A stretch of 37,254 bases of DNA from Nanobdellota archaeon (lineage in GTDB: Archaea > Nanobdellota > Nanobdellia > Woesearchaeales > GW2011-AR9), in assembly GCA_038046425.1 (NCBI GenBank), contig JBBSWG010000069.1, positions 1 through 37,254 on the forward strand, read 5' to 3'. Below are positions 5,869-31,223 of this stretch, piece by piece (within the stretch, counting starts at the first letter, position 1; each line of letters opens with the position of its first letter). The notes under the pieces were generated by a model, which made no database searches, was not told the origin of the DNA, and worked only from the letters and a program-made list of their open reading frames with translations. A program made the translations under genes and the position numbers.

Positions 5869-6108
5869 TATTCTCTCTTTTTCGATTGTATTATTTAAAT
5901 CTTTCTGCATAAAATAGCATCCCTTTGTTTCCCACCTCGAAAAAGGTTTCTCTTTCAAAACTGACGTTAAGTTTACAACTCAATAATTACCCCCCAAAAT
6001 ATTTATAAAGGGGCACTATTACTACGCTCCTTAAGTCCCGCTGGGATTGGTCATTGAGGCAACTCAGATCACCATTTCTGAGCCAGCCATAAAGCAAGGC
6101 ACATTACT

Positions 6109-6414
6109 ATGCCCCGAGGAATGTATAAATCAGGACGATTCCGCCGTGTTTACGTAAAAACACCGGGTGGAAGAACTGCTCTTCATTACCGAGAAAGCAA
6201 GCCTACGCGAGCACATTGTGGACAATGTGGAAGAGCTCTTGCGGGCGTGCCACGGGAACGACCGGTTATCCTCCGTAGAATTCCTAAATCCTCCCGCCGG
6301 CCGGAACGACCTTATGGCGGGGTATTATGTTCAGCCTGTATGCGGTTACTCTTTCAGGCGAAAGCACGAAGCGCCGGGAATGAAGGAGAAATGGGCGGAG
6401 GGAGTGGGACATGA
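6109..6414 (+). CDS. rpl34e: 50S ribosomal protein L34e (eL34)
   Basis: RRVYVKTPGG...CGQCG...RRPERPYGGVLCSAC signature. Confidence 0.95.
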   Translation: MPRGMYKSGRFRRVYVKTPGGRTALHYRESKPTRAHCGQCGRALAGVPRERPVILRRIPKSSRRPERPYGGVLCSACMRLLFQAKARSAGNEGEMGGGSGT

Positions 6415-6665
6415 GCATATTTGAAGTTGGGCGGCTGGTGATGAAGATAGCCGGAAGAGATGCTGGCGGTAAGGGTGTCGTCATTGAGCAGCTCGATAAT
6501 ATTTATGTTCTCGTTGATGGTGGTCTCCGCAGAAAAAAGGTTAATATAAAGCATTTAGAGCCGCTTTCCGTGGTTATTGAGCTTAATGCTGGTGCTGCTC
6601 ATGAGGAGGTGGAGAGGGAATTTAAAAAATTGGGCTTGCCGGTCTGGGAAAGGAAGGCTCAGTAA
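6411..6665 (+). CDS. rpl14e: 50S ribosomal protein L14e (eL14)
   Basis: EVGRLVMKIAGRDAG...VLVDG..RRKKVNIKHLEP (KOW-like); ATGA overlap with rpl34e. Confidence 0.93.
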   Translation: MSIFEVGRLVMKIAGRDAGGKGVVIEQLDNIYVLVDGGLRRKKVNIKHLEPLSVVIELNAGAAHEEVEREFKKLGLPVWERKAQ

Positions 6666-6716
6666 AAACTCAGCGTCGTTGCTCGCCCTCGTGGCCAAGC
6701 CAGCCCCCTGTTTCTG

Positions 6717-7286
6717 ATGAGTGAAATAATACTTTTCCCCATAATCCTTATAAACTTTACCTTTTCTCTGCTAGGAATGGCTTCGGTCCAGGCTGCCCAA
6801 AACTATGCTTCGACGGTCCTAGCGGGAATAGCTATCCTCCTGTTCGGCTTCAGCGCCGGTATCCTCGTCCGAAAATTAGTACAAAAGCTGCTGCAGGAAG
6901 TGGCTTTCAATACCTATCTCGCGAAAGTGGGAGTCCATTATAATCTAGAACGGATGAGCGGTGCGGTGCTGGCCTACGCTATCTATATTCTCACCATTAT
7001 TCTCTTCCTGAAAGCGTTAAACATTCATCGGCTCGCTTTCTATACTATTGTCGGAGTGGTGCTACTCCTCATCGCCCTTTCCTTCGTCGTCTGGCTAAAA
7101 GATGTCCTTCCTAATTTGGCCGGCTGGCATCTACTCCTGAAACGACAAGCGCAGGCCGGAAACAGGATCTCGCTACCGTCGGTAACAGGAAAAATAGTAG
7201 AAATTGGCTACTTTGAAACTAAAATTAAGACCGCCCAAGGAGATATTTTACACGTGCCGAATGTATTGTTCCGGGAAGGGTTTTGA
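6717..7286 (+). CDS. MscS-family small mechanosensitive channel-like protein (true start may be 6777)
   Basis: Transmembrane helices followed by KDVLPNLAG...GNRI...TGKIVEIGYFETKIKTAQGDILHVPN (MscS beta-domain pattern). Confidence 0.8.
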   Translation: MSEIILFPIILINFTFSLLGMASVQAAQNYASTVLAGIAILLFGFSAGILVRKLVQKLLQEVAFNTYLAKVGVHYNLERMSGAVLAYAIYILTIILFLKALNIHRLAFYTIVGVVLLLIALSFVVWLKDVLPNLAGWHLLLKRQAQAGNRISLPSVTGKIVEIGYFETKIKTAQGDILHVPNVLFREGF

Positions 7287-7288
7287 AT

Positions 7289-7463
7289 GGAGAGTTTTGA
7301 ATAGATCGTGCTTTTCTACGTGAAGTACGTCGCTGTTAACCTCGCATCAAAACTCTCCCGTGAGGGGTATAGTGGTTCTGCTAAAACCGCTCCCGTTAAT
7401 CAGTTGCGTTCTTTTACGTCCCCCTATTCCCCATGCTAGAGAATTTTCCGCAGAAAATTCTCT
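7289..7463 (+). repeat. Structured repeat element / candidate ncRNA, copy 1
   Basis: Homologous to the reverse complement of 30745-30950. Stems GGAGAGTTTTGA/TCAAAACTCTCC and AGTGGTT/AACCGCT; terminal palindrome AGAGAATTTTC-CGCA-GAAAATTCTCT. Confidence 0.8.
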
Positions 7464-7474
7464 GAGCAAAATTC

Positions 7475-7714
7475 TCAATTCCGCAGGCTTTCCAGCATGC
7501 TGGCAATGTCCCAGATCTGCGTGCGGCAATAGGACGTCATCTCAAAAGATTCCATCTCTTCTAACTGCAGCAAGGCTTTATCAATCGCTAAATTAGAATT
7601 CTCACGCAGGACAGCAATCACATTCCCGGTCTTCTCTCGAACTCTCTTACTGACATCTGGATCATGTCCTAATTGTTCCAATTGAGCGACAACATCAATA
7701 AGTAGAGCGGTCAT
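7475..7714 (-). CDS. UPF0147-family protein
   Basis: DPDVSKRVRE...LEE...SYCRTQIWDIASMLES pattern. Confidence 0.85.
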   Translation of the reverse strand: MTALLIDVVAQLEQLGHDPDVSKRVREKTGNVIAVLRENSNLAIDKALLQLEEMESFEMTSYCRTQIWDIASMLESLRN

Positions 7715-7729
7715 TTTTAATTTCTTCCC

Positions 7730-8044
7730 TCATCTCTTCAGATCTTTAAGCATTTCTTTCTGCACCGTCTCCATCATCTGATTCAATTTTTCTTCCTGCT
7801 TTTCCACGCTTTGGATACGTAGCTCCGCGACTTCTTTCTTTTCCTGGAGATCCTTAGCCAGGCCTTCCGTAGACGTCGCGAGCATGATCTTCCCGATAAT
7901 CCGATACGCTTTTTCCGTCGTTTTCAGTTCACGGGTGGCGGATTCCAGCTCGACTAATTGATTCTGCAGCTGTTGCTTTTGCGTTAGAAGAGCCTGCAGA
8001 TTTTGTTGGAGAAGCTGTAGTTGTTGTACCTTTGCGGAAGCCAT
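7730..8044 (-). CDS. pfdB: Prefoldin beta subunit
   Basis: Coiled coil - AYRIIGKIML hairpin - coiled coil; conserved rpl37ae-rpo12-pfdB gene order. Confidence 0.9.
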   Translation of the reverse strand: MASAKVQQLQLLQQNLQALLTQKQQLQNQLVELESATRELKTTEKAYRIIGKIMLATSTEGLAKDLQEKKEVAELRIQSVEKQEEKLNQMMETVQKEMLKDLKR

Positions 8045-8068
8045 GGTGATGGTTGACGTGTCGTAATG

Positions 8069-8209
8069 TTATCGTGCTTTAATCTTCACGGTCGTGCGCC
8101 GATCTTTGTACAGAATTTTTCCGCCGCAATAGGGGCAACGTACTCGCATCTTTGTCTGTTCTTTTTCCACTCGTTTTCCACAGGTAAAACAGAGGTAATA
8201 CATAGGCAT
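8069..8209 (-). CDS. rpo12: DNA-directed RNA polymerase subunit Rpo12 (P)
   Basis: Below the ORF-track cutoff. MPMYYLCFTCGKRVEKEQTKMRVRCPYCGGKILYKDRRTTVKIKAR (46 aa, zinc ribbon), directly after rpl37ae. Confidence 0.93.
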   Translation of the reverse strand: MPMYYLCFTCGKRVEKEQTKMRVRCPYCGGKILYKDRRTTVKIKAR

Positions 8210-8257
8210 GGTAAATCACGGGCATTGATTTTAAAGTTGTTGAAGTTAGGATTTTTG

Positions 8258-8452
8258 TTATGTTGGTGTATACGCTTTCCCGGCAAATTTAACGTGACAG
8301 GATCGGCATTGCCAGATGCCTGCTGCTAGCCGCTTTACCGCGAATTTAAGGCAGGAGGAACATTTATGCTTAGCTCGCTGCTGGATTTCAATCTTGGCAA
8401 ACTTGACTTTTGGTTTCGTGCCGTAACGGGCACCAAAGCGTTTGATGGGCAT
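8258..8452 (-). CDS. rpl37ae: 50S ribosomal protein L37ae (eL43)
   Basis: RFGARYG...CSSC...VKRLAAGIWQCRSC..KFAGKAY signature. Confidence 0.95.
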   Translation of the reverse strand: MPIKRFGARYGTKPKVKFAKIEIQQRAKHKCSSCLKFAVKRLAAGIWQCRSCHVKFAGKAYTPT

Positions 8453-8488
8453 GGGGTAAAGTTAATGGAAGCAGGGTGTTGCACAGGA

Positions 8489-8578
8489 AATAAATGGGGC
8501 TGCTCGGATATAAGGGGCCTGGCCCCTTATCAACCCCAGGGCGAACTACGCCAAGGGAATAAATGGGGCTGCCCGGAT
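8489..8578. repeat. 21-bp direct repeat of the tRNA-Pro 3' end enclosing two GC hairpins (att-like scar)
   Basis: AATAAATGGGGCTGCTCGGAT (8489-8509) vs AATAAATGGGGCTGCCCGGAT (8558-8578), 20/21 identical; ATAAGGGGCC-T-GGCCCCTTAT at 8510-8530. Confidence 0.8.
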
Positions 8579-19944: not shown

Positions 19945-20865
19945 ATGAAAAAAAGAAATAATCTTTTAGCAGCTTTAGGCTTAGCTGGAATTCTTGGTGC
20001 CTCTTGGTATTTTAATAAGAATTCTCCAAAAATTGAAAAAGCTGAAGAATCCCCAGCAACTGAAGTCACCTCCAATAAAAACATAGCCAAAAATAATAAA
20101 AAAGCTCGAGAGCAATTTTTAATTGTCTCAAGACCGCATTCTCAGGAAGAAAAAGATGAATTTAGGGATTATATAGCCAATTTAGAAATAGTCCCGCCAA
20201 TACTTTACAAAACTGATGAAAAATGTGATATTAATAAGTTAACAGCAGGTTATACAAAAGAGCATAAGTCCTTTGCTGAGCTAAAGACAAACAACGAGCA
20301 TATTCTATGGAAAGCACTTGACCATCTTATAAATATTGATGTTAATTTGGCTAATTGTTTGCATAAATTAGATAGACAAAGATCAGATTATTTACTAAAA
20401 GAAGCGGCAGGACACTATGAATACAGAGGAAGCTATGGAAGTGCAGGAAGACTATATTATTTTTTAGGTGATAAAAATAAAGCCCGCAAAAATTTCAGAA
20501 AAGACCCCTTAACTTTAGAAGCACTTATTAAATTTACTCCGCCTGAAGAGCTAAATAAATTAAAAGAAGCATATTTAACCCGGGGGGGATATTTAGAAGC
20601 TGGAAAAATTGCCTGGTATCAAGGAGATAGAGAAAAAGGAAGAGAATATATCGCTCAATCTGAAAGATATAAAGAATTAATTGAGAACTGTAGTAATTTT
20701 ATTGATAAAGGAAACGTTAGAAAGGCAATATTTGTTCTGTGGGAATTTAGCCGAATTCCATTTTACAAAGAAGCATTATTAAGCAAGTGCAAAAATGAAA
20801 AATGTAAAAGGGAAATAGAAAATTATATTCCCAATAGTAAAAGCAATGTTATAAAAACATTATAG
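19945..20865 (+). CDS. Membrane-anchored/secreted helical-repeat (TPR-like) protein, paralog A
   Basis: N-terminal basic plus hydrophobic leader; SAGRLYYFLGDKNKAR and EAGKIAWYQGDREKG are TPR-like hairpins. Confidence 0.8.
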   Translation: MKKRNNLLAALGLAGILGASWYFNKNSPKIEKAEESPATEVTSNKNIAKNNKKAREQFLIVSRPHSQEEKDEFRDYIANLEIVPPILYKTDEKCDINKLTAGYTKEHKSFAELKTNNEHILWKALDHLINIDVNLANCLHKLDRQRSDYLLKEAAGHYEYRGSYGSAGRLYYFLGDKNKARKNFRKDPLTLEALIKFTPPEELNKLKEAYLTRGGYLEAGKIAWYQGDREKGREYIAQSERYKELIENCSNFIDKGNVRKAIFVLWEFSRIPFYKEALLSKCKNEKCKREIENYIPNSKSNVIKTL

Positions 20866-21072
20866 ATAACTGTGCAAATCAAGTTTTTGGAGTTGTTTTG
20901 AACCTTTTTATATTGCTCTACCTCCGCCTTTCTTCCGAATAGAGTCATATTTGTCATGAACGCATTTCTGTCCGCAACAAATAATTCTCTTTTTGGATAG
21001 TGCCCGTTATTATAACCTATAGTAGTAATAACTAGGAGAGTTTATATAGAACAACCTCCTATTTTTCAAACA

Positions 21073-21975
21073 ATGAAAAAAAGAAATAATCTTTTAGCAG
21101 CTTTAGGCCTAGCGGGAATTCTTGGTGCCTCTTGGTATTTTAATAAAAATTCTCCAAAAACTGAAAAAACTGAAGGATCACCAGCAGCTAAAACTTTCAA
21201 AATTAGTTCCACAAAAAGAGTTAAAAAAGTGAAAAAAATTGTCATGCTGGGGATAAATAACAAAGGATTTCAAGAGGCAGAAGATGAATACAGATATTAC
21301 ATAGATAATTTGGAGATAGTTCCAGACTTTTTATATAGTAATTATGAAGGATGCAAAATGGATGAATTAAAACAGAAACATGATGATTTAATAAATAAAA
21401 TACAACACAATAATTTTTCATTTGAAGATATAAATAATTTAATATTGGTAAATACTTCTCTTGCAAATTGTCTTCATAATACACCTGATGAAGAGTATAA
21501 AAGAATACTTCTAGAAACAGCAGATTACCTAAGAACATTAAATAGAACGCCCAGCGCAGGAAGGATATACTATTTTTTAGGTGATAATAAAAAAGCAAGA
21601 GAATGTTTTGAAGCAAGTCCACAAACCTTAGAAGAGCTAATAAAATTAACACCAGCTGAAGAACTTCCAGCACTAAGAGATAAATTTGTAGCAGACAAAA
21701 GATACTTAGAAGCTGGAAAAGTGGCCTGGTATGAAGGAGATAAAGAAGAAGCAAGACAGATTATTGAACAATCAGATGAATTTAAACAAGCCTACACTGA
21801 ATGTAAAGAACTAGTAAAAAATAAACTTTATCTGCCAGCCGTAAGAATGCTTTGGAGGCGCCTAAAACTTCCATTTGCAAAAGAAACCGTAATGGGGCTA
21901 TGCAAAAGCAATAGAAAATGTCTTTCTGATGTAAATAATTACAATCAAAATAAAGATGTAATTTCAATATATTAA
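21073..21975 (+). CDS. Membrane-anchored/secreted helical-repeat (TPR-like) protein, paralog B
   Basis: First 29 aa identical to paralog A; SAGRIYYFLGDNKKAR, EAGKVAWYEGDKEEA; shared cysteines. Confidence 0.8.
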   Translation: MKKRNNLLAALGLAGILGASWYFNKNSPKTEKTEGSPAAKTFKISSTKRVKKVKKIVMLGINNKGFQEAEDEYRYYIDNLEIVPDFLYSNYEGCKMDELKQKHDDLINKIQHNNFSFEDINNLILVNTSLANCLHNTPDEEYKRILLETADYLRTLNRTPSAGRIYYFLGDNKKARECFEASPQTLEELIKLTPAEELPALRDKFVADKRYLEAGKVAWYEGDKEEARQIIEQSDEFKQAYTECKELVKNKLYLPAVRMLWRRLKLPFAKETVMGLCKSNRKCLSDVNNYNQNKDVISIY

Positions 21976-21977
21976 AT

Positions 21978-24119
21978 TTAAGAAAAAGAGCTTTTAGTCA
22001 AAGACTTCCCTGTTGGTGCTACTGTTGTAACAGATTTCATTTTTGATATTCCTAATCCTGCACCAGAACATTCAAATTCTGACGCTACTGAACCGCAACG
22101 TGAGTCTTGTGTTTCTCCTGCTGGATTTTGTGTTTCTTCCTGACTAAAAGTGCTTCCATGAGCACAAAAGCTAGCATCACTTCCCCCACTGCTCGCAGAT
22201 TGGCCACTATTTATTTCACAATCTATCATTCCAAACATCTCCAGAAGTTTTTCAGCACATAACGGTGTTTCCCCATAAGACCAGCCTTCATCTCTGGTAT
22301 CTCCTCCCAATCCGCCTGCTGGATCTTTAACTCCCGGAACCGGACCGCCTATATCAGGAGCTTTATCATTTCCGCTGGGTGGAGGAGATCTGCCAAAATA
22401 TTCACAAGCAGCATATTTGCACCAGTCGGCATCTGCTATTACAGATAAAAGATTCGGACCAGTATTCGGAATACACTTGCCAAATAAAGAAACAGCAGCA
22501 CCAGAACAAGCACTGTCTTCACCAGGGAAATCAGCACCACCAACGCCCCTCAAAACATCATTAATTCTTATTTTTCCTTCAGTGCTGGTTCTTTGATCAA
22601 TATGATCTCTCTCATGATTTATTATATCTCTAGGAGTATAGCTATCTTTAGTAATGAATCCAGCACTAAAGGAGGTAAAAGGTGAACCAGAACCTTCTAC
22701 GGGTTGATTATCTGGTGTACTAAGCACTTGGTCACTAATAAAAATAGTATTTGTGTCTATATTAGCACAACCAAGCGCATCATTATGACCACAAACCTTC
22801 CTGGCATCTTTCTGATCAAAGGTTTTATATTTTGCATTATCAGAACGTTTTCCAGTAATGTCGTAAGCCCCATTTCTTTTCAAACTTTTTTGTTCTTCAC
22901 TGTCATCCTTTACTGTTTTTCCACACCCTTTAGAATCGGGAGTTATTTCTGCGCAAGGTTTCTGTTTAGTCGTTTTTCCTTCAAATCCTTCCTTTGATAA
23001 TCCGCCGCATCCAGACTTAGAATTAGGACCAGAAATACCATGCTGAGTTAATCTGCTGCTAAAAACAATTGGTTGTTTATTTTTCGGAAATCTTGATCCG
23101 CATCCCAAGCTATCTGACATAGATGATACATAATCTTCAGCTCCTGAACCGGGAGTTTTAGCTCCCCCGGTTATAGCCGAACAACCAACCTTCATAGCAT
23201 TCCCAATTTCTCTCCATCCCTTACCAGAGGAACCAGCAGCACAAGGAAGAAGAGGCAAAATAAGGTTTGATAAACGCTCTTCTAATCCGTTCATTCCAGA
23301 ACCTGTAGGTGAAGATTTCAATTTTTGAGAACCACTGCCAGATATTTCATTGCCACTTACCAAACCTTGAGCAGCATCTTTTCCTATACCCGCACCAACT
23401 TTACCAGCAACAGTTCCAGAAGACGTCAAAGAACATACTTTTTGAATGTTAAAAACAATATCTTTTCCGGAGATGCCTAAAGGGCTTTTATATTCATTTT
23501 GATTATCTTTGTATACAATATCGCTGCCCATCAGCTCTCCCTCTAATAATTTTCCAGGACTCTGAAAAGAAATTCCTTCAGCACAGATAAATCCAGTATC
23601 CGCCCATTCTGAAAGTGAGCAACCAACCCCATAATTTACTGGTTTCAATGCAAATGTCCAGAAAAGATCATGACTAGCATAACATTCTGGATTTTTTTTA
23701 TTCTTTTCACAAAATAAACCATACATCTCAAATTCACCAGTATAATAATTCCAAGTTACAAAAGGAAAACTCACTTTGGGATAATAAAAATTACATCTTT
23801 CACCAACATCTTCAGCAAGTTGAAGTTCCTTGTAAATTGAAGATTTTCCACTATTTAATATAAAGTCCATAACCAGCCAAGAAGGTTGTAAAATAGCATT
23901 AAAATTATTGCATGTTTGAAATTCGTCTGGTAACAATGGTTTAATGCGCACTTTATCAGCTAGCTGTTTGATAGTACTACCAAGAACTTTGTCTATTTCA
24001 AATAGATTATCACTATCCATGCAAAGAATTTTATCCTCCCACACCCCTAAATGCGTTACCCACTCCTGATTTTTCCCATTCAAAAAATAATTTTTTAAAG
24101 TGTTAACTTCTTTATTCAA
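21978..24119 (-). CDS. Large Gly/Ser/Cys-rich protein with a putative zincin metallopeptidase domain; probably the 3' part of a frameshifted gene starting at 24421
   Basis: 713-aa ORF with about 25 Cys; LGCANIDTNTIFIS...IINHERDHIDQ (HExxH); TTG start, no signal peptide of its own. Confidence 0.7.
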   Translation of the reverse strand: MNKEVNTLKNYFLNGKNQEWVTHLGVWEDKILCMDSDNLFEIDKVLGSTIKQLADKVRIKPLLPDEFQTCNNFNAILQPSWLVMDFILNSGKSSIYKELQLAEDVGERCNFYYPKVSFPFVTWNYYTGEFEMYGLFCEKNKKNPECYASHDLFWTFALKPVNYGVGCSLSEWADTGFICAEGISFQSPGKLLEGELMGSDIVYKDNQNEYKSPLGISGKDIVFNIQKVCSLTSSGTVAGKVGAGIGKDAAQGLVSGNEISGSGSQKLKSSPTGSGMNGLEERLSNLILPLLPCAAGSSGKGWREIGNAMKVGCSAITGGAKTPGSGAEDYVSSMSDSLGCGSRFPKNKQPIVFSSRLTQHGISGPNSKSGCGGLSKEGFEGKTTKQKPCAEITPDSKGCGKTVKDDSEEQKSLKRNGAYDITGKRSDNAKYKTFDQKDARKVCGHNDALGCANIDTNTIFISDQVLSTPDNQPVEGSGSPFTSFSAGFITKDSYTPRDIINHERDHIDQRTSTEGKIRINDVLRGVGGADFPGEDSACSGAAVSLFGKCIPNTGPNLLSVIADADWCKYAACEYFGRSPPPSGNDKAPDIGGPVPGVKDPAGGLGGDTRDEGWSYGETPLCAEKLLEMFGMIDCEINSGQSASSGGSDASFCAHGSTFSQEETQNPAGETQDSRCGSVASEFECSGAGLGISKMKSVTTVAPTGKSLTKSSFS

Positions 24120-28973: not shown

Positions 28974-29386
28974 GGTAGAGTGGCCTAAGCCGCCTTCGGT
29001 CAGACCCAAAGCATTCCTAAGGAATGCCGATGATCTGTGAAAGCATTCTACTAAGCGTTCGTCATGAACTTGCACCGGCCAGCATTCGCCGTTTCATCGT
29101 TCCCTGCTGAGACGTCAAGGGGTTAACTCATCTCTTTCGCAAGAGACTTCGCCATCAATCATCCCATTCAGCAGGACGTGTCGTTGCTGCGCCAGAGGCA
29201 CGGGCTTTCCCCGTCTCCCTGAGGGAGTGGCCATAGTGTACCATTGATTCCATTGCGAAATCGCCGATACGGGTGGGCGGACTTTCCTCACAAATTTTGG
29301 GGCTCGCTGCGCTCACCCCAAAATTTGTTGTTTTTGGGAACGAGCTAACGGCCTTGATTTGCGAAAGCTTTCTGCCACTGCTACCT
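28974..29386 (-). ncRNA. rnpB: RNase P RNA (archaeal)
   Basis: P4 motifs GAGGAAAGTCCGCC and ACCGAAGGCGGCTTA; P1 GGTAGcAGTGGC/GCCACTCTACC; P2 GAAAGC/GCTTTC; GCAGCAACG, GATGAAACGGC, GGTGCAAG and AGAATGCT conserved blocks. Confidence 0.93.
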
Positions 29387-30411: not shown

Positions 30412-30795
30412 ATGTTCTTCCAGAGAATGGATCATAAGCTTCAGATGACGTTAGTTATTGTTATCTTTCTTAGCTTGACCGTTGTGGCCGGACTATTAGT
30501 CGCCCAAACGGCCGGCTTTACTTTGGGAAATCTATTGCGGCCGAGCCTGACGCCCACCATTACCGGCGCAGCAGTAGCGACCTGTACTGGAGCGAATTGT
30601 CCTGTCCCTCTAGCGGTCTGTGCGGAAAAAATCGGCCGGGCCTGCCGCATCGCCTGCTCTGAACAGGAAGATTGCGATGACCGCATTTCTGCTACCACTG
30701 ATCTCTGTAAGAATCCGGGAACAGAATTCTCGCTGTGTGTGAATAGAGAATTTTCTGCTGAAAATTCTCTGGCAGAGGAACGGGGGGACAAGTAA
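30412..30795 (+). CDS. Membrane-anchored Cys-rich hypothetical protein
   Basis: N-terminal TM, TITGAAV, CSEQEDCDD..ATTDLCKNPGTEFSLCVN. The C-terminus is encoded by the repeat element. Confidence 0.75.
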   Translation: MFFQRMDHKLQMTLVIVIFLSLTVVAGLLVAQTAGFTLGNLLRPSLTPTITGAAVATCTGANCPVPLAVCAEKIGRACRIACSEQEDCDDRISATTDLCKNPGTEFSLCVNREFSAENSLAEERGDK

Positions 30796-30950
30796 AAAAC
30801 CAACACCATTAACTCACAACCAATTAACAGAAGCGGTTTTAACAGAGGCGGGTTTAGCAGAACCACCGTACCCCACGCCAGAGGGTTTTGAAGCGATGTT
30901 GAGGTTGACGCAGTTCATATAGATGAGTACAGACCACTCAAAACCCTCTC
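30745..30950 (-). repeat. Structured repeat element / candidate ncRNA, copy 2
   Basis: AGAGGGTTTTGA/TCAAAACCCTCT stem, GGTGGTTCTGCTAAACCCGCC and AGAGAATTTTC-N4-GAAAATTCTCT; homologous to 7289-7463. Confidence 0.8.
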
Positions 30951-31223
30951 TTACAAGGCCGTGCGGATATTCTCAATGTTGGAAGCTATTTCCCGGCCTT
31001 TCCTGGTTAATTCTAGCAGTTTAAGGCGGCCTTCTTTCTTGAAATTGATTAAATCAGCCTTCTGCATCTCTTGCAGAATCTTCACCACATGGCTATAGGT
31101 GCAGTCAATTTGCTTTGCTAAAACGCTCGCATACACCTGAGCATCGGCATTTTTCAAGCCGACCAGCATCAGGGCCGGCTTCTCCCGGAAAAAGACGTCA
31201 AAAATCGCTTTGTTTTTACCCAA
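30951..31223 (-). CDS. Winged helix-turn-helix protein (MarR-like)
   Basis: YASVLAKQIDCTYSHVVKILQEM...GRLKLLELTRKG. Confidence 0.88.
   Translation of the reverse strand: MGKNKAIFDVFFREKPALMLVGLKNADAQVYASVLAKQIDCTYSHVVKILQEMQKADLINFKKEGRLKLLELTRKGREIASNIENIRTAL

What the first reader, a model, noticed from the sequence alone, without database searches (positions are those of the whole stretch)
7289..7463. Unrecognised structured element present twice, with covariation, directly after stop codons
Seen: 7289-7463 (+) and 30745-30950 (-) are homologous. The first ~68 nt align without gaps, and stem 1 covaries (GAGAGTTTTGA/TCAAAACTCTC vs GAGGGTTTTGA/TCAAAACCCTC). Stem 2 also covaries (AGTGG/CCGCT vs GGTGG/CCGCC around TTCTGCTAAA). 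Both end in AGAGAATTTTC-N4-GAAAATTCTCT. G-T pairs favour the strand that is sense to the upstream gene. Each copy starts within 3 nt of that gene's stop codon (mscS-like; wHTH) and sits between convergent genes. The copies have diverged but kept their pairing. I do not recognise the family. Inference: a new 3'-UTR/ncRNA class or a small non-autonomous mobile element under structural selection.
Basis: partly seen in the sequence, partly recalled or inferred. Interest (0 to 1): 0.85.

Follow-up and report, generated by a model that had tools for sequence, protein, structure and literature searches.

The report
Orphan IS5-derived MITE repeat family
The two look-alike hairpin stretches are members of a large family of small, non-coding jumping-gene remnants (MITEs) that sit flush against gene ends in a tiny archaeal genome; this is a known kind of element, not a new RNA class.

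Summary
The two stretches are homologous and fold into conserved stems with some compensatory changes. "Present twice" is wrong. The window's 1.12-Mb archaeal genome carries 75 loci of the family: 28 full or composite, 18 with the 5' hairpin only, 29 with the 3' hairpin only.

The end hairpins P1 and P3 are each a pair of inverted terminal repeats. The same termini, (TA)GAGrrnTTTGAATAA and GAGAAnTTTGCAAAAT, bound five complete 1.1-1.2-kb insertion sequences in other genera of the same archaeal family. Two of their ORFs were scanned and score as IS5-family transposases. The terminal motif occurs in 33 of 114 genomes of that family.

The element is therefore a MITE. In this genome it is an orphan: no partner transposase was found, and copies are about 72% alike. 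Copies face either way relative to neighbouring genes, which argues against an obligate 3'-UTR RNA. Many ends touch or overlap stop codons and sometimes supply them. No Rfam family matches. A later RNA-level role is neither excluded nor shown.

The parts
7275..7477 (+). Copy A, full extent of the MITE including an extra outer terminal-repeat copy at each end
   Evidence: CM score 181.9 bits for 7288-7463
7275..7288 (+). Extra tandem copy of the left terminal repeat (GAAGGGTTTTGAAT). It encodes the last 3 codons (E-G-F) and the stop TGA (7284-7286) of the MscS-like gene 6717-7286
   Evidence: Close homologues P0002/P0003 end LFR-GKN / LFR-KTFS, so only the last residues differ. The same tandem duplication occurs in the copies on own-genome contigs C21, C19 and C29
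7289..7358 (+). P1: left terminal repeat GGAGAGTTTTGA (7289-7300) paired with its inverted copy TCAAAACTCTCC (7347-7358) around a 46-nt loop
   Evidence: 14 of 15 bases identical to the left end GAGAGTTTTGAATAA of the G102 insertion sequence
7360..7436 (+). P2: long-range helix GTGAGGGG (7360-7367) with CCCCATGC (7429-7436). It encloses a variable middle with the unit AAACCGCTyCyGTTA (1 copy here) and the T-run TTCTTTTACGT (7409-7419)
7438..7463 (+). P3: right-end palindrome AGAGAATTTTC-CGCA-GAAAATTCTCT, resembling the second end type of the related insertion sequences (GAGAAnTTTGCAAAAT)
7464..7477 (+). Extra half arm GAGCAAAATTCTCA. Its reverse complement TGAGAATTTTGCTC carries the stop TGA (7475-7477 on the - strand) of the converging UPF0147 gene 7475-7714(-)
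30745..30950 (-). Copy B, full MITE: P1 30949-30880, P2 30879-30771, P3 30770-30745, two middle units (30855-30840, 30839-30825), T-run 30801-30792
   Evidence: CM score 162.7 bits
30412..30795 (+). Converging gene whose reading frame runs 17 codons into copy B (through P3) before its stop. The same-genus orthologue ends right after the conserved ...CVNR
   Evidence: alignment with G001, G002, G005; reading of frames by eye from those outputs
30951..31223 (-). Winged-HTH gene. Its stop TAA (30951-30953) directly precedes copy B and is conserved in the same-genus orthologues

Best explanation
[quoted passage not shown] It is a non-coding derivative of an IS5-family insertion sequence that circulates in this archaeal family.

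Shown: its outer ends are that insertion sequence's two terminal inverted repeats. Each end is accompanied by an inward-facing inverted copy, which gives hairpins P1 and P3. A variable middle is closed by a third helix, P2.

Inferred, how it moved: the IS5-type DDE transposase, supplied in trans, bound the terminal repeats, cut the element out and inserted it at TA-containing sites. In a genome that is nearly all coding, the tolerated sites are mostly stop codons and promoter edges. Surviving copies therefore sit flush against gene ends, and several supply or replace the stop codon.

Inferred, present state: in this genome the family is an orphan and probably immobile. No partner transposase was found, copies have diverged (median 72% identity), and many are truncated.
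For: 1. Family size. 99 nhmmer hits merge into 75 loci: 28 full or composite, 18 5'-only, 29 3'-only. They total 8,256 nt (0.74% of the genome) on 41 of 76 contigs.
2. Termini. The 5' end is (T)AGAGGGTTTTGAAT and the 3' end is GCAAAATTCTCT, an imperfect inverted repeat.
3. Autonomous partners elsewhere. In G102 a 1,199-bp element reads TATA|GAGAGTTTTGAATAACCC...ORF of 354 aa...GGGTTATTCAAAGTTCTC|TATA. The ORF hits DUF772 (1.6e-18), DDE_Tnp_1 (5.1e-12) and NCBIfam NF033581 'IS5 family transposase' (203.8 bits, cut-off 140). The G126 ORF scores 195.4 bits.
4. Five complete copies of 1,113-1,199 bp (G102, G126, G104, G107, G114) carry the two end types GAGrrnTTTGAATAA and GAGAAnTTTGCAAAAT. No other internal inverted repeat was seen in the 44 bases printed at each end.
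5. Distribution. The motif TAGAGGNNTTTGAATAAC (up to 1 mismatch) is in 33 of 114 genomes of the archaeal family: G115 105 matches, G018 33, G022 12, G053 11, G000 9, same-genus G001 3 and G002 2. The reversed-pattern control gives 0-1 strand counts, at most 2 matches per genome.
6. Recent activity elsewhere. G022 has 11 copies or part-copies of a ~100-nt two-hairpin form, 87-100% identical to the query copy; 8 are 97-100%. G115 has 89-nt forms flanked ATA|GAGG...CCTC|TA.
7. Absence at an orthologous site. Same-genus G001 and G002 have unrelated spacers of roughly 80 nt where copy B sits.
8. Orientation relative to genes is mixed.
9. No Rfam family matches.
Against: - No target-site duplication can be shown in this genome. 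In relatives the flanking TA/TATA is palindromic, so it cannot be told apart from an extension of the inverted repeat. One G022 copy has AAGTA direct repeats.
- The genomes with the most copies or the most recent ones (G115, G022, G053) gave no hit to the IS5-type transposase. All are draft assemblies in which insertion sequences are often unassembled.
- Similarity between the element and the insertion sequences was seen only in the terminal ~15-20 bases. The interiors compared by eye were unlike.
- At locus B the element fills the whole gap between two ancestral stop codons with 0-1 nt left over. That is not what a simple insertion into a spacer of roughly 80 nt would leave.
- G.U over A.C asymmetry (about 32 to 3 cells, 10 to 3 columns) and 5 compensatory pairs hint at selection on a single-stranded fold, which a DDE (double-strand) mechanism does not need.
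Confidence: 0.82

Rival explanations
1. Exapted gene-end RNA module. Whatever its origin, the element now acts at the RNA level. P1 and P3 would form hairpins right after stop codons that end or stabilise transcripts of the abutting genes. P3, being palindromic, could serve both converging genes, and selection would keep the fold.
For: - 13 of 19 P1 ends that face a co-oriented ORF, and 23 of 37 P3 ends that face a converging ORF, lie within -20 to +5 nt of its stop.
- 29 of 52 P3 palindromes have a stop of a 60-codon-or-longer frame within 8 nt, usually merged with the arm (tGAgaa, taGagaa).
- 99% of stem cells pair; 5 of 25 pairs show compensatory change against 1.0 expected, with 0 of 500 shuffles as high.
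- G.U exceeds A.C on one strand.
- A T-run (TTTTTTACG) is seen in most of the 20 aligned full copies (not tallied). That oligo-T tracts signal archaeal termination is recalled.
- The structures persist although no transposase was found.
Against: - Orientation to the upstream gene is mixed: 11 co-oriented and 15 opposed among full copies.
- Many copies are truncated or rearranged, as expected for neutral decay.
- Stem conservation is what matched transposase-binding ends would give anyway.
- Sense and antisense fold energies are similar.
- The G.U bias rests mainly on two P2 columns that may be inherited states.
Confidence: 0.12
2. Hairpins first. The hairpin repeats are an independent REP-like family, and the IS5-type insertion sequences merely target their loops, as some bacterial insertion sequences target REPs. 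The shared 'ends' would then be split hairpin arms.
For: A hairpin with an insertion in its loop would look like arm-IS-arm. The arms flanking the insertion sequences are 18 nt long and match hairpin arms of the small elements.
Against: - Five insertion sequences, whose transposase matches are 34-69% identical to the G102 ORF, all end exactly in these repeats. No other internal inverted repeat was seen in the 44 bases printed at each end.
- No second hairpin of the small element follows the G102 or G126 copy.
- No Y1/RAYT transposase was found in this genome.
- The one Y1 gene in G022 has no such motif within 1,928 nt.
Confidence: 0.04
3. MITE of an IS630/Tc1-type element. The TA flanks would reflect the TA duplication typical of that family, and the DDE_3 transposases in these genomes would mobilise it.
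For: - TA is constant next to both ends in G115, G022 and some G000 copies.
- G022 has an intact DDE_3 gene (130.2 bits).
- G000 has a 42-bit remnant at contig C14:27435-27557, right beside a short element copy.
Against: - The left end of the G022 DDE_3 element (TATAGACAATTCTG...) matches the small element only weakly.
- G115, with the most copies, has no DDE_3 hit, nor do G117, G041 and G063.
- Insertion sequences with matching ends encode IS5-family, not DDE_3, transposases.
- In G000 the element's outer end faces the remnant, which looks like adjacency or nesting.
Confidence: 0.02

Closest known systems
MITEs derived from IS5-family insertion sequences (transposase of NCBIfam NF033581 type, DUF772 + DDE_Tnp_1)
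   Same: Small and non-coding, 91-279 nt in this genome. Inverted termini match those of intact insertion sequences of 1.1-1.2 kb. Dispersed and multi-copy, intergenic, lineage-restricted, and outnumbering the autonomous copies.
   Different: Each terminus is doubled into a hairpin (P1, P3). A third long-range helix and a variable tandem 15-nt unit lie in between. No duplication of the target can be demonstrated. No partner is present in this genome. E. coli IS5 duplicates YTAR (PMC5009759, passages read); here only TA/TATA flanks are seen.
REP / BIME / REPIN-RAYT systems of bacteria
   Same: Extragenic palindromes, often just after stop codons and between convergent genes, occurring singly and in mosaic combinations. 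They are proposed to affect transcript ends (abstracts listed).
   Different: No Y1 (RAYT) transposase in this genome (0 hits). Arms are A+T-rich rather than G+C-rich. The arms are the ends of a DDE insertion sequence.
Modular and structured bacterial repeats: BOX elements of Streptococcus pneumoniae and Correia/NEMIS elements of Neisseria (recalled, not read here)
   Same: Modular build (end module, variable number of middle units, end module). Foldable transcripts. Located at gene borders, where they can alter neighbouring gene ends.
   Different: Different domain of life and unrelated sequence. For the present family an autonomous partner can be named.
Archaeal MITEs already catalogued: Sulfolobus SM1-SM4 (recalled); census of MITEs in 8,220 archaeal genomes (PMC11602168, passages read)
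   Same: The census reports MITEs in 1,015 of 8,220 archaeal genomes, with DPANN genomes among the densest. The density here is 75 loci per 1.12 Mb.

Membership tests
MITE (non-autonomous derivative of an IS5-family insertion sequence) | Short and without coding capacity of its own | tested here: met
   Full and composite copies are 91-279 nt. No protein family was found for overlapping frames. The ORF 30412-30795, which overlaps copy B, is a neighbouring gene running into it.
MITE (non-autonomous derivative of an IS5-family insertion sequence) | Terminal inverted repeats | tested here: met
   AGAGrrTTTTG at the 5' end and CAAAAyyCTCT at the 3' end across the 20-22 aligned full copies.
MITE (non-autonomous derivative of an IS5-family insertion sequence) | Termini shared with an autonomous element that encodes a transposase | tested here: met
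   Five complete elements in G102, G126, G104, G107 and G114 have these termini. The ORFs of G102 and G126 pass the NF033581 cut-off. None was found in the window's own genome (tblastn, no hit).
MITE (non-autonomous derivative of an IS5-family insertion sequence) | Target-site duplication | tested here: inconclusive
   G000 copies show no consistent direct repeats; one copy (contig C54) has TATA on both sides. In G022, G115 and G102 the TA/TATA flanks are palindromic. One G022 copy has AAGTA on both sides.
MITE (non-autonomous derivative of an IS5-family insertion sequence) | Many dispersed copies, and presence/absence between related genomes | tested here: met
   75 loci on 41 contigs. Locus B is unoccupied in same-genus G001 and G002, although the spacers are not alignable. 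No empty allele of locus A appeared in the contigs of 4 DNA runs.
Rfam RNA families (any) | Score at or above a family's gathering threshold | tested here: not met
   Whole window: only archaeal RNase P at 28974-29318. E-value scans of both copies gave only sub-threshold hairpin look-alikes: mir-3047 22.6 bits against 53, whalefall-1 16.7 against 37, MIR838 13.1 against 190.
REP/REPIN with RAYT | A Y1 (IS200-like) transposase gene in the genome, typically flanked by the repeats | tested here: not met
   PF01797: 0 matches in G000 at E up to 0.1. The single hit in G022 has no repeat motif within 1,928 nt.
IS200/IS605-derived palindrome elements (PATE) or TnpB guide-RNA remnants | TnpA or TnpB gene present, and a conserved short target directly 5' of the left hairpin | tested here: not met
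   No PF01797 hit. Only 3 sub-threshold zinc-ribbon hits for PF07282 (best 17.7 bits against 26.3). The 5' flanks of 22 copies share no tetra- or pentanucleotide.
Obligate 3'-UTR or terminator element of the upstream gene | Constant orientation with respect to the gene it follows | tested here: not met
   Full copies: upstream ORF co-oriented in 11 and opposed in 15. Downstream ORF opposed in 16 and co-oriented in 11 (own crude ORF calls).

The most novel reading that the evidence does not exclude
In a streamlined 1.1-Mb archaeal genome that has lost the transposase, the orphan MITE hairpins have been taken over as gene-end modules. The repeat TAGAGGGTTTTGAATAA carries a stop codon in each of the three frames within 17 nt (read from the sequences). 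P3 merges with the stop codons of abutting genes. The P1-P2-P3 fold would be kept by selection as a two-way transcript-end or stability element. That would be an archaeal counterpart of bacterial REP function, born from an IS5-type MITE.
Probability: 0.13. Interest if true: 0.55.

Novelty: new member of a known kind. Interest (0 to 1): 0.3.

Why it matters
The finding removes a candidate 'new structured RNA class'. Conserved, covarying hairpins directly after stop codons can be nothing more than the doubled ends of a MITE.

It also gives annotators of small archaeal genomes from groundwater metagenomes a concrete repeat family, with its IS5-type parent and its terminal motif. The family breaks assemblies: public unitigs stop at the element. 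It also changes the last codons or stop codons of neighbouring genes, three of them in this window alone.

If the hairpins were later shown to shape transcript ends, this would be a tractable case of mobile-element exaptation in a reduced archaeal genome.

Tried and rejected
- Rfam at gathering and E-value thresholds: nothing.
- BLAST of copy A against 40 relatives: no match. This was misleading. A covariance model and then a terminal-motif scan did find the family in relatives.
- Exact-pattern scans of genome contigs (58 stretches) and metagenome contigs (57 stretches): all chance matches by nhmmer (best E 0.006). The one exception was L104, which is the same organism, 99.8% identical over 1,119 nt to own-genome contig C20.
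- IS200/IS605 and TnpB link: rejected.
- IS630 link: considered because of the TA flanks and a DDE_3 remnant beside a copy, then rejected.
- Inverted-repeat search around a DDE_3 gene of G043 gave nothing usable.
- A 7-member and a 5-member paralogous ORF family of the own genome have no Pfam domain, and no link to the element was seen.
- Expression: no RNA holder was listed for window:6700-7720, so nothing can be said about transcription.
- Contigs of 4 DNA runs were laid on 6000-8500. They break at 7323 and 7404 and chain across the element. No contig joins across it as an empty site.
- The protein atlas call on the XPD-like helicase gave no useful taxonomy.
- Supplements of the MITE census (PMC11602168) could not be seen, so prior listing of this family is unchecked.
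- No structure or complex prediction was needed.

Full report
**What is at the coordinates.** The stretch 7289-7463 (+) and the stretch 30745-30950 (-) are homologous. Both start directly after a stop codon. Copy A follows an MscS-like gene, 6717-7286 (Pfam MS_channel_2nd, 1.9e-07). Copy B follows a 90-aa winged-HTH gene, 30951-31223(-). Each faces a converging gene: UPF0147 at 7475-7714(-) for copy A and the ORF 30412-30795(+) for copy B. The window also holds an archaeal RNase P RNA. It is contig C69 of a 1.12-Mb, 76-contig genome rated 95.75% complete.

**Not two copies but a family.**
- BLAST of copy A against the own genome gave 43 matches.
- Three rounds of nhmmer gave 53, 77 and 99 hits.
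- After removing overlaps (82 hits) and joining colinear pieces, there are 75 loci on 41 of 76 contigs. 28 are full or composite, 18 have only the 5' module and 29 only the 3' module. Together they cover 8,256 nt, 0.74% of the genome.
- Twenty full copies are 60-93% identical pairwise, median 72%.

**Anatomy.** Alignment and folding of the full copies give three adjoining helices.
- P1: (T)AGAGGGTTTTGA ... TCAAAACCCTCT around a conserved ~46-nt loop.
- P2: a long-range helix, GCGTGGGG ... CCCCACGC. It closes a variable middle that holds one to three tandem units AAACCGCTTCTGTTA and usually a T-run followed by ACG.
- P3: AGAGAATTTTGC-N3/4-GCAAAATTCTCT.

Variants:
- a longer P3 with a nested hairpin;
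- short forms without the middle;
- P1-only forms;
- two copies, plus one truncated, with a second ~100-nt hairpin repeat inserted in the P1 loop.

**Pairing statistics.** On the 20-copy alignment, 99.0% of 499 stem cells pair. Five of 25 pairs (7 cells) changed on both sides, against 1.0 in shuffles, and 0 of 500 shuffles reached this. Sliding the partner drops pairing to 43-67%. Most stem columns never vary.

G.U cells (about 32) far outnumber A.C cells (3). However, 27 of them lie in P2 and 21 in two columns. By column the split is 10 against 3. Sense and antisense fold energies are similar.

**Context.** I made crude ORF calls myself: 1,245 ORFs covering 87% of the genome. Among full copies the upstream ORF is co-oriented in 11 and opposed in 15. 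The element is therefore not tied to one gene's 3' end.

Where an end faces a gene's 3' end it usually touches it:
- 13 of 19 P1 ends and 23 of 37 P3 ends lie within -20 to +5 nt of the stop.
- Of 52 P3-type palindromes, 29 have a stop of a frame of 60 codons or more within 8 nt. It is typically fused to the arm as tGAgaa or taGagaa.
- Where P1 faces a divergent gene it mostly stops about 37 nt before the start codon. An A+T-rich box lies about 10 nt outside the element.

In the window itself:
- Copy A really spans 7275-7477. An extra tandem copy of the left repeat (7275-7288) encodes the last three residues and the TGA of the MscS-like gene. That protein is otherwise full length compared with its closest homologues of 183 and 170 aa.
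- An extra half arm (7464-7477) carries the TGA of the UPF0147 gene.
- At copy B, the converging ORF runs 17 codons into the element. Its same-genus orthologue stops right after the conserved ...CVNR.

**Relatives.**
- BLAST with copy A found nothing in 40 related genomes.
- Exact-pattern scans of two public collections found only chance matches, plus one contig of the same organism.
- A covariance model found weak hits in 4 of 60 same-family genomes. Six were in G022. These turned out to be near-identical ~100-nt two-hairpin elements, TATA|GAGGACTTTGAATAACCCC...TCAAACCCTTC|TATA. G022 has 11 copies or part-copies, 87-100% identical to the query copy, 8 of them 97-100%.
- The shared terminal motif TAGAGGNNTTTGAATAAC, with up to one mismatch, occurs in 33 of 114 genomes of the family. 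There are up to 105 matches in G115. It is also in both same-genus genomes. The reversed control pattern gives 0-1 strand counts, at most 2 matches per genome.

**The parent element.** In G102 two inverted motif copies lie 1.2 kb apart and enclose a 354-aa ORF. Its hits:
- DUF772, 1.6e-18;
- DDE_Tnp_1, 5.1e-12;
- NCBIfam NF033581 'IS5 family transposase', 203.8 bits against a cut-off of 140.

Homologues occur in 10 of 114 genomes. Five complete elements of 1,113-1,199 bp end in GAGrrnTTTGAATAA and/or GAGAAnTTTGCAAAAT. No further internal inverted repeat was seen in the 44 bases printed at each end. Copy A's left arm GAGAGTTTTGAATAG matches the G102 left end in 14 of 15 bases. The P3 arm GAGAATTTTGC resembles the second end type.

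The family is thus a MITE of an IS5-family insertion sequence. The own genome has no tblastn hit to that transposase. Given the divergence and the truncations, its copies are probably old orphans.

**Weak points.**
- No target duplication can be proved, because the TA/TATA flanks are palindromic. One G022 copy has AAGTA on both sides.
- G115, G022 and G053, which are rich in copies, gave no hit to the IS5-type transposase. They are drafts, and insertion sequences are often unassembled.
- G022 does carry a DDE_3 gene and a Y1 gene. The DDE_3 left end matches poorly and the Y1 locus has no motif.
- At locus B the element fills the gap between two ancestral stops exactly, whereas the same-genus genomes have unrelated spacers of roughly 80 nt. 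Either the ancestral spacer was tiny or spare DNA was deleted later.

**Why gene ends?** This part is inference.
- E. coli IS5 duplicates YTAR (PMC5009759, passages read). Every such tetramer contains TAA or TAG.
- Here TA is constant beside both ends in the recent copies.
- In an 87%-coding genome, a TA inside a stop codon is one of the few harmless targets. An end that starts with G restores TAG, or TGA after a T.
- The left repeat TAGAGGGTTTTGAATAA also holds TAG, TGA and TAA in the three frames within 17 nt (read from the sequences). Any frame that enters it therefore ends at once.

**RNA function.** No RNA run holds the stretch. Contigs of four DNA runs keep the element at locus A. An exapted role as a transcript-end hairpin remains possible. 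The evidence is the flush position, the compensatory pairs and the G.U bias, but none of it has been tested.

**Comparison and verdict.** MITEs are well known, including in archaea. A census found them in 1,015 of 8,220 archaeal genomes, with DPANN genomes among the densest (PMC11602168, passages read).

Noticed in passing
window 28974-29318 (-): Archaeal RNase P RNA (RF00373, 109.9 bits against a gathering score of 84). This is what shows that the window is archaeal.
   Followed up: no
window 20001-24000: Low-G+C stretch (0.31-0.39, against about 0.47 elsewhere). It holds two paralogous ORFs, 19945-20865 and 21073-21975. Possibly a foreign island.
   Followed up: no
G000:C53:22396-22674 (L016:1499-1777), G000:C36:4125-4372, G000:C10:8154-8280: A second, unrelated repeat of about 100 nt with two hairpins (CGGAACTTTTGC...GCAAAAAGTTCCGGGCCTGCA...TGCAGG). 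It is inserted at the same place in the P1 loop of two MITE copies, and a third copy is truncated there. This is either nesting of one small repeat in another or a subfamily.
   Followed up: partly
G000:C14:27312-27640 (in L036/L231): Remnant of the last ~70 residues of an IS630-type (DDE_3) transposase (...LPPYSPELNPIEQVW...; 41.9 bits). It lies directly beside a short MITE copy that follows the stop of a zinc-ribbon gene.
   Followed up: partly
G000 contigs C17, C18, C40, C41, C55, C56, C6 (e.g. L031:887-1438, L032:866-1423): A 7-member family of small paralogous ORFs (83-185 aa) and a 5-member family of large ones (up to 743 aa). The members scanned have no Pfam domain.
   Followed up: partly
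G022:C25:63-428 (L229) and G022:C86:34089-34517 (L230): The genome with near-identical MITE copies also holds an IS200-like Y1 transposase gene and an apparently intact IS630-type gene with an A9 run early in the gene. Neither shares the MITE ends.
   Followed up: partly
window 7260-7511, public runs X3, X4, X6, X8: Unitigs of independent DNA runs break at 7323 and 7404. Summed depth over the element is 2-6 times that of the flanks, as expected for a dispersed repeat. The family is a cause of contig breaks in this genome; several contigs end at copies.
   Followed up: yes
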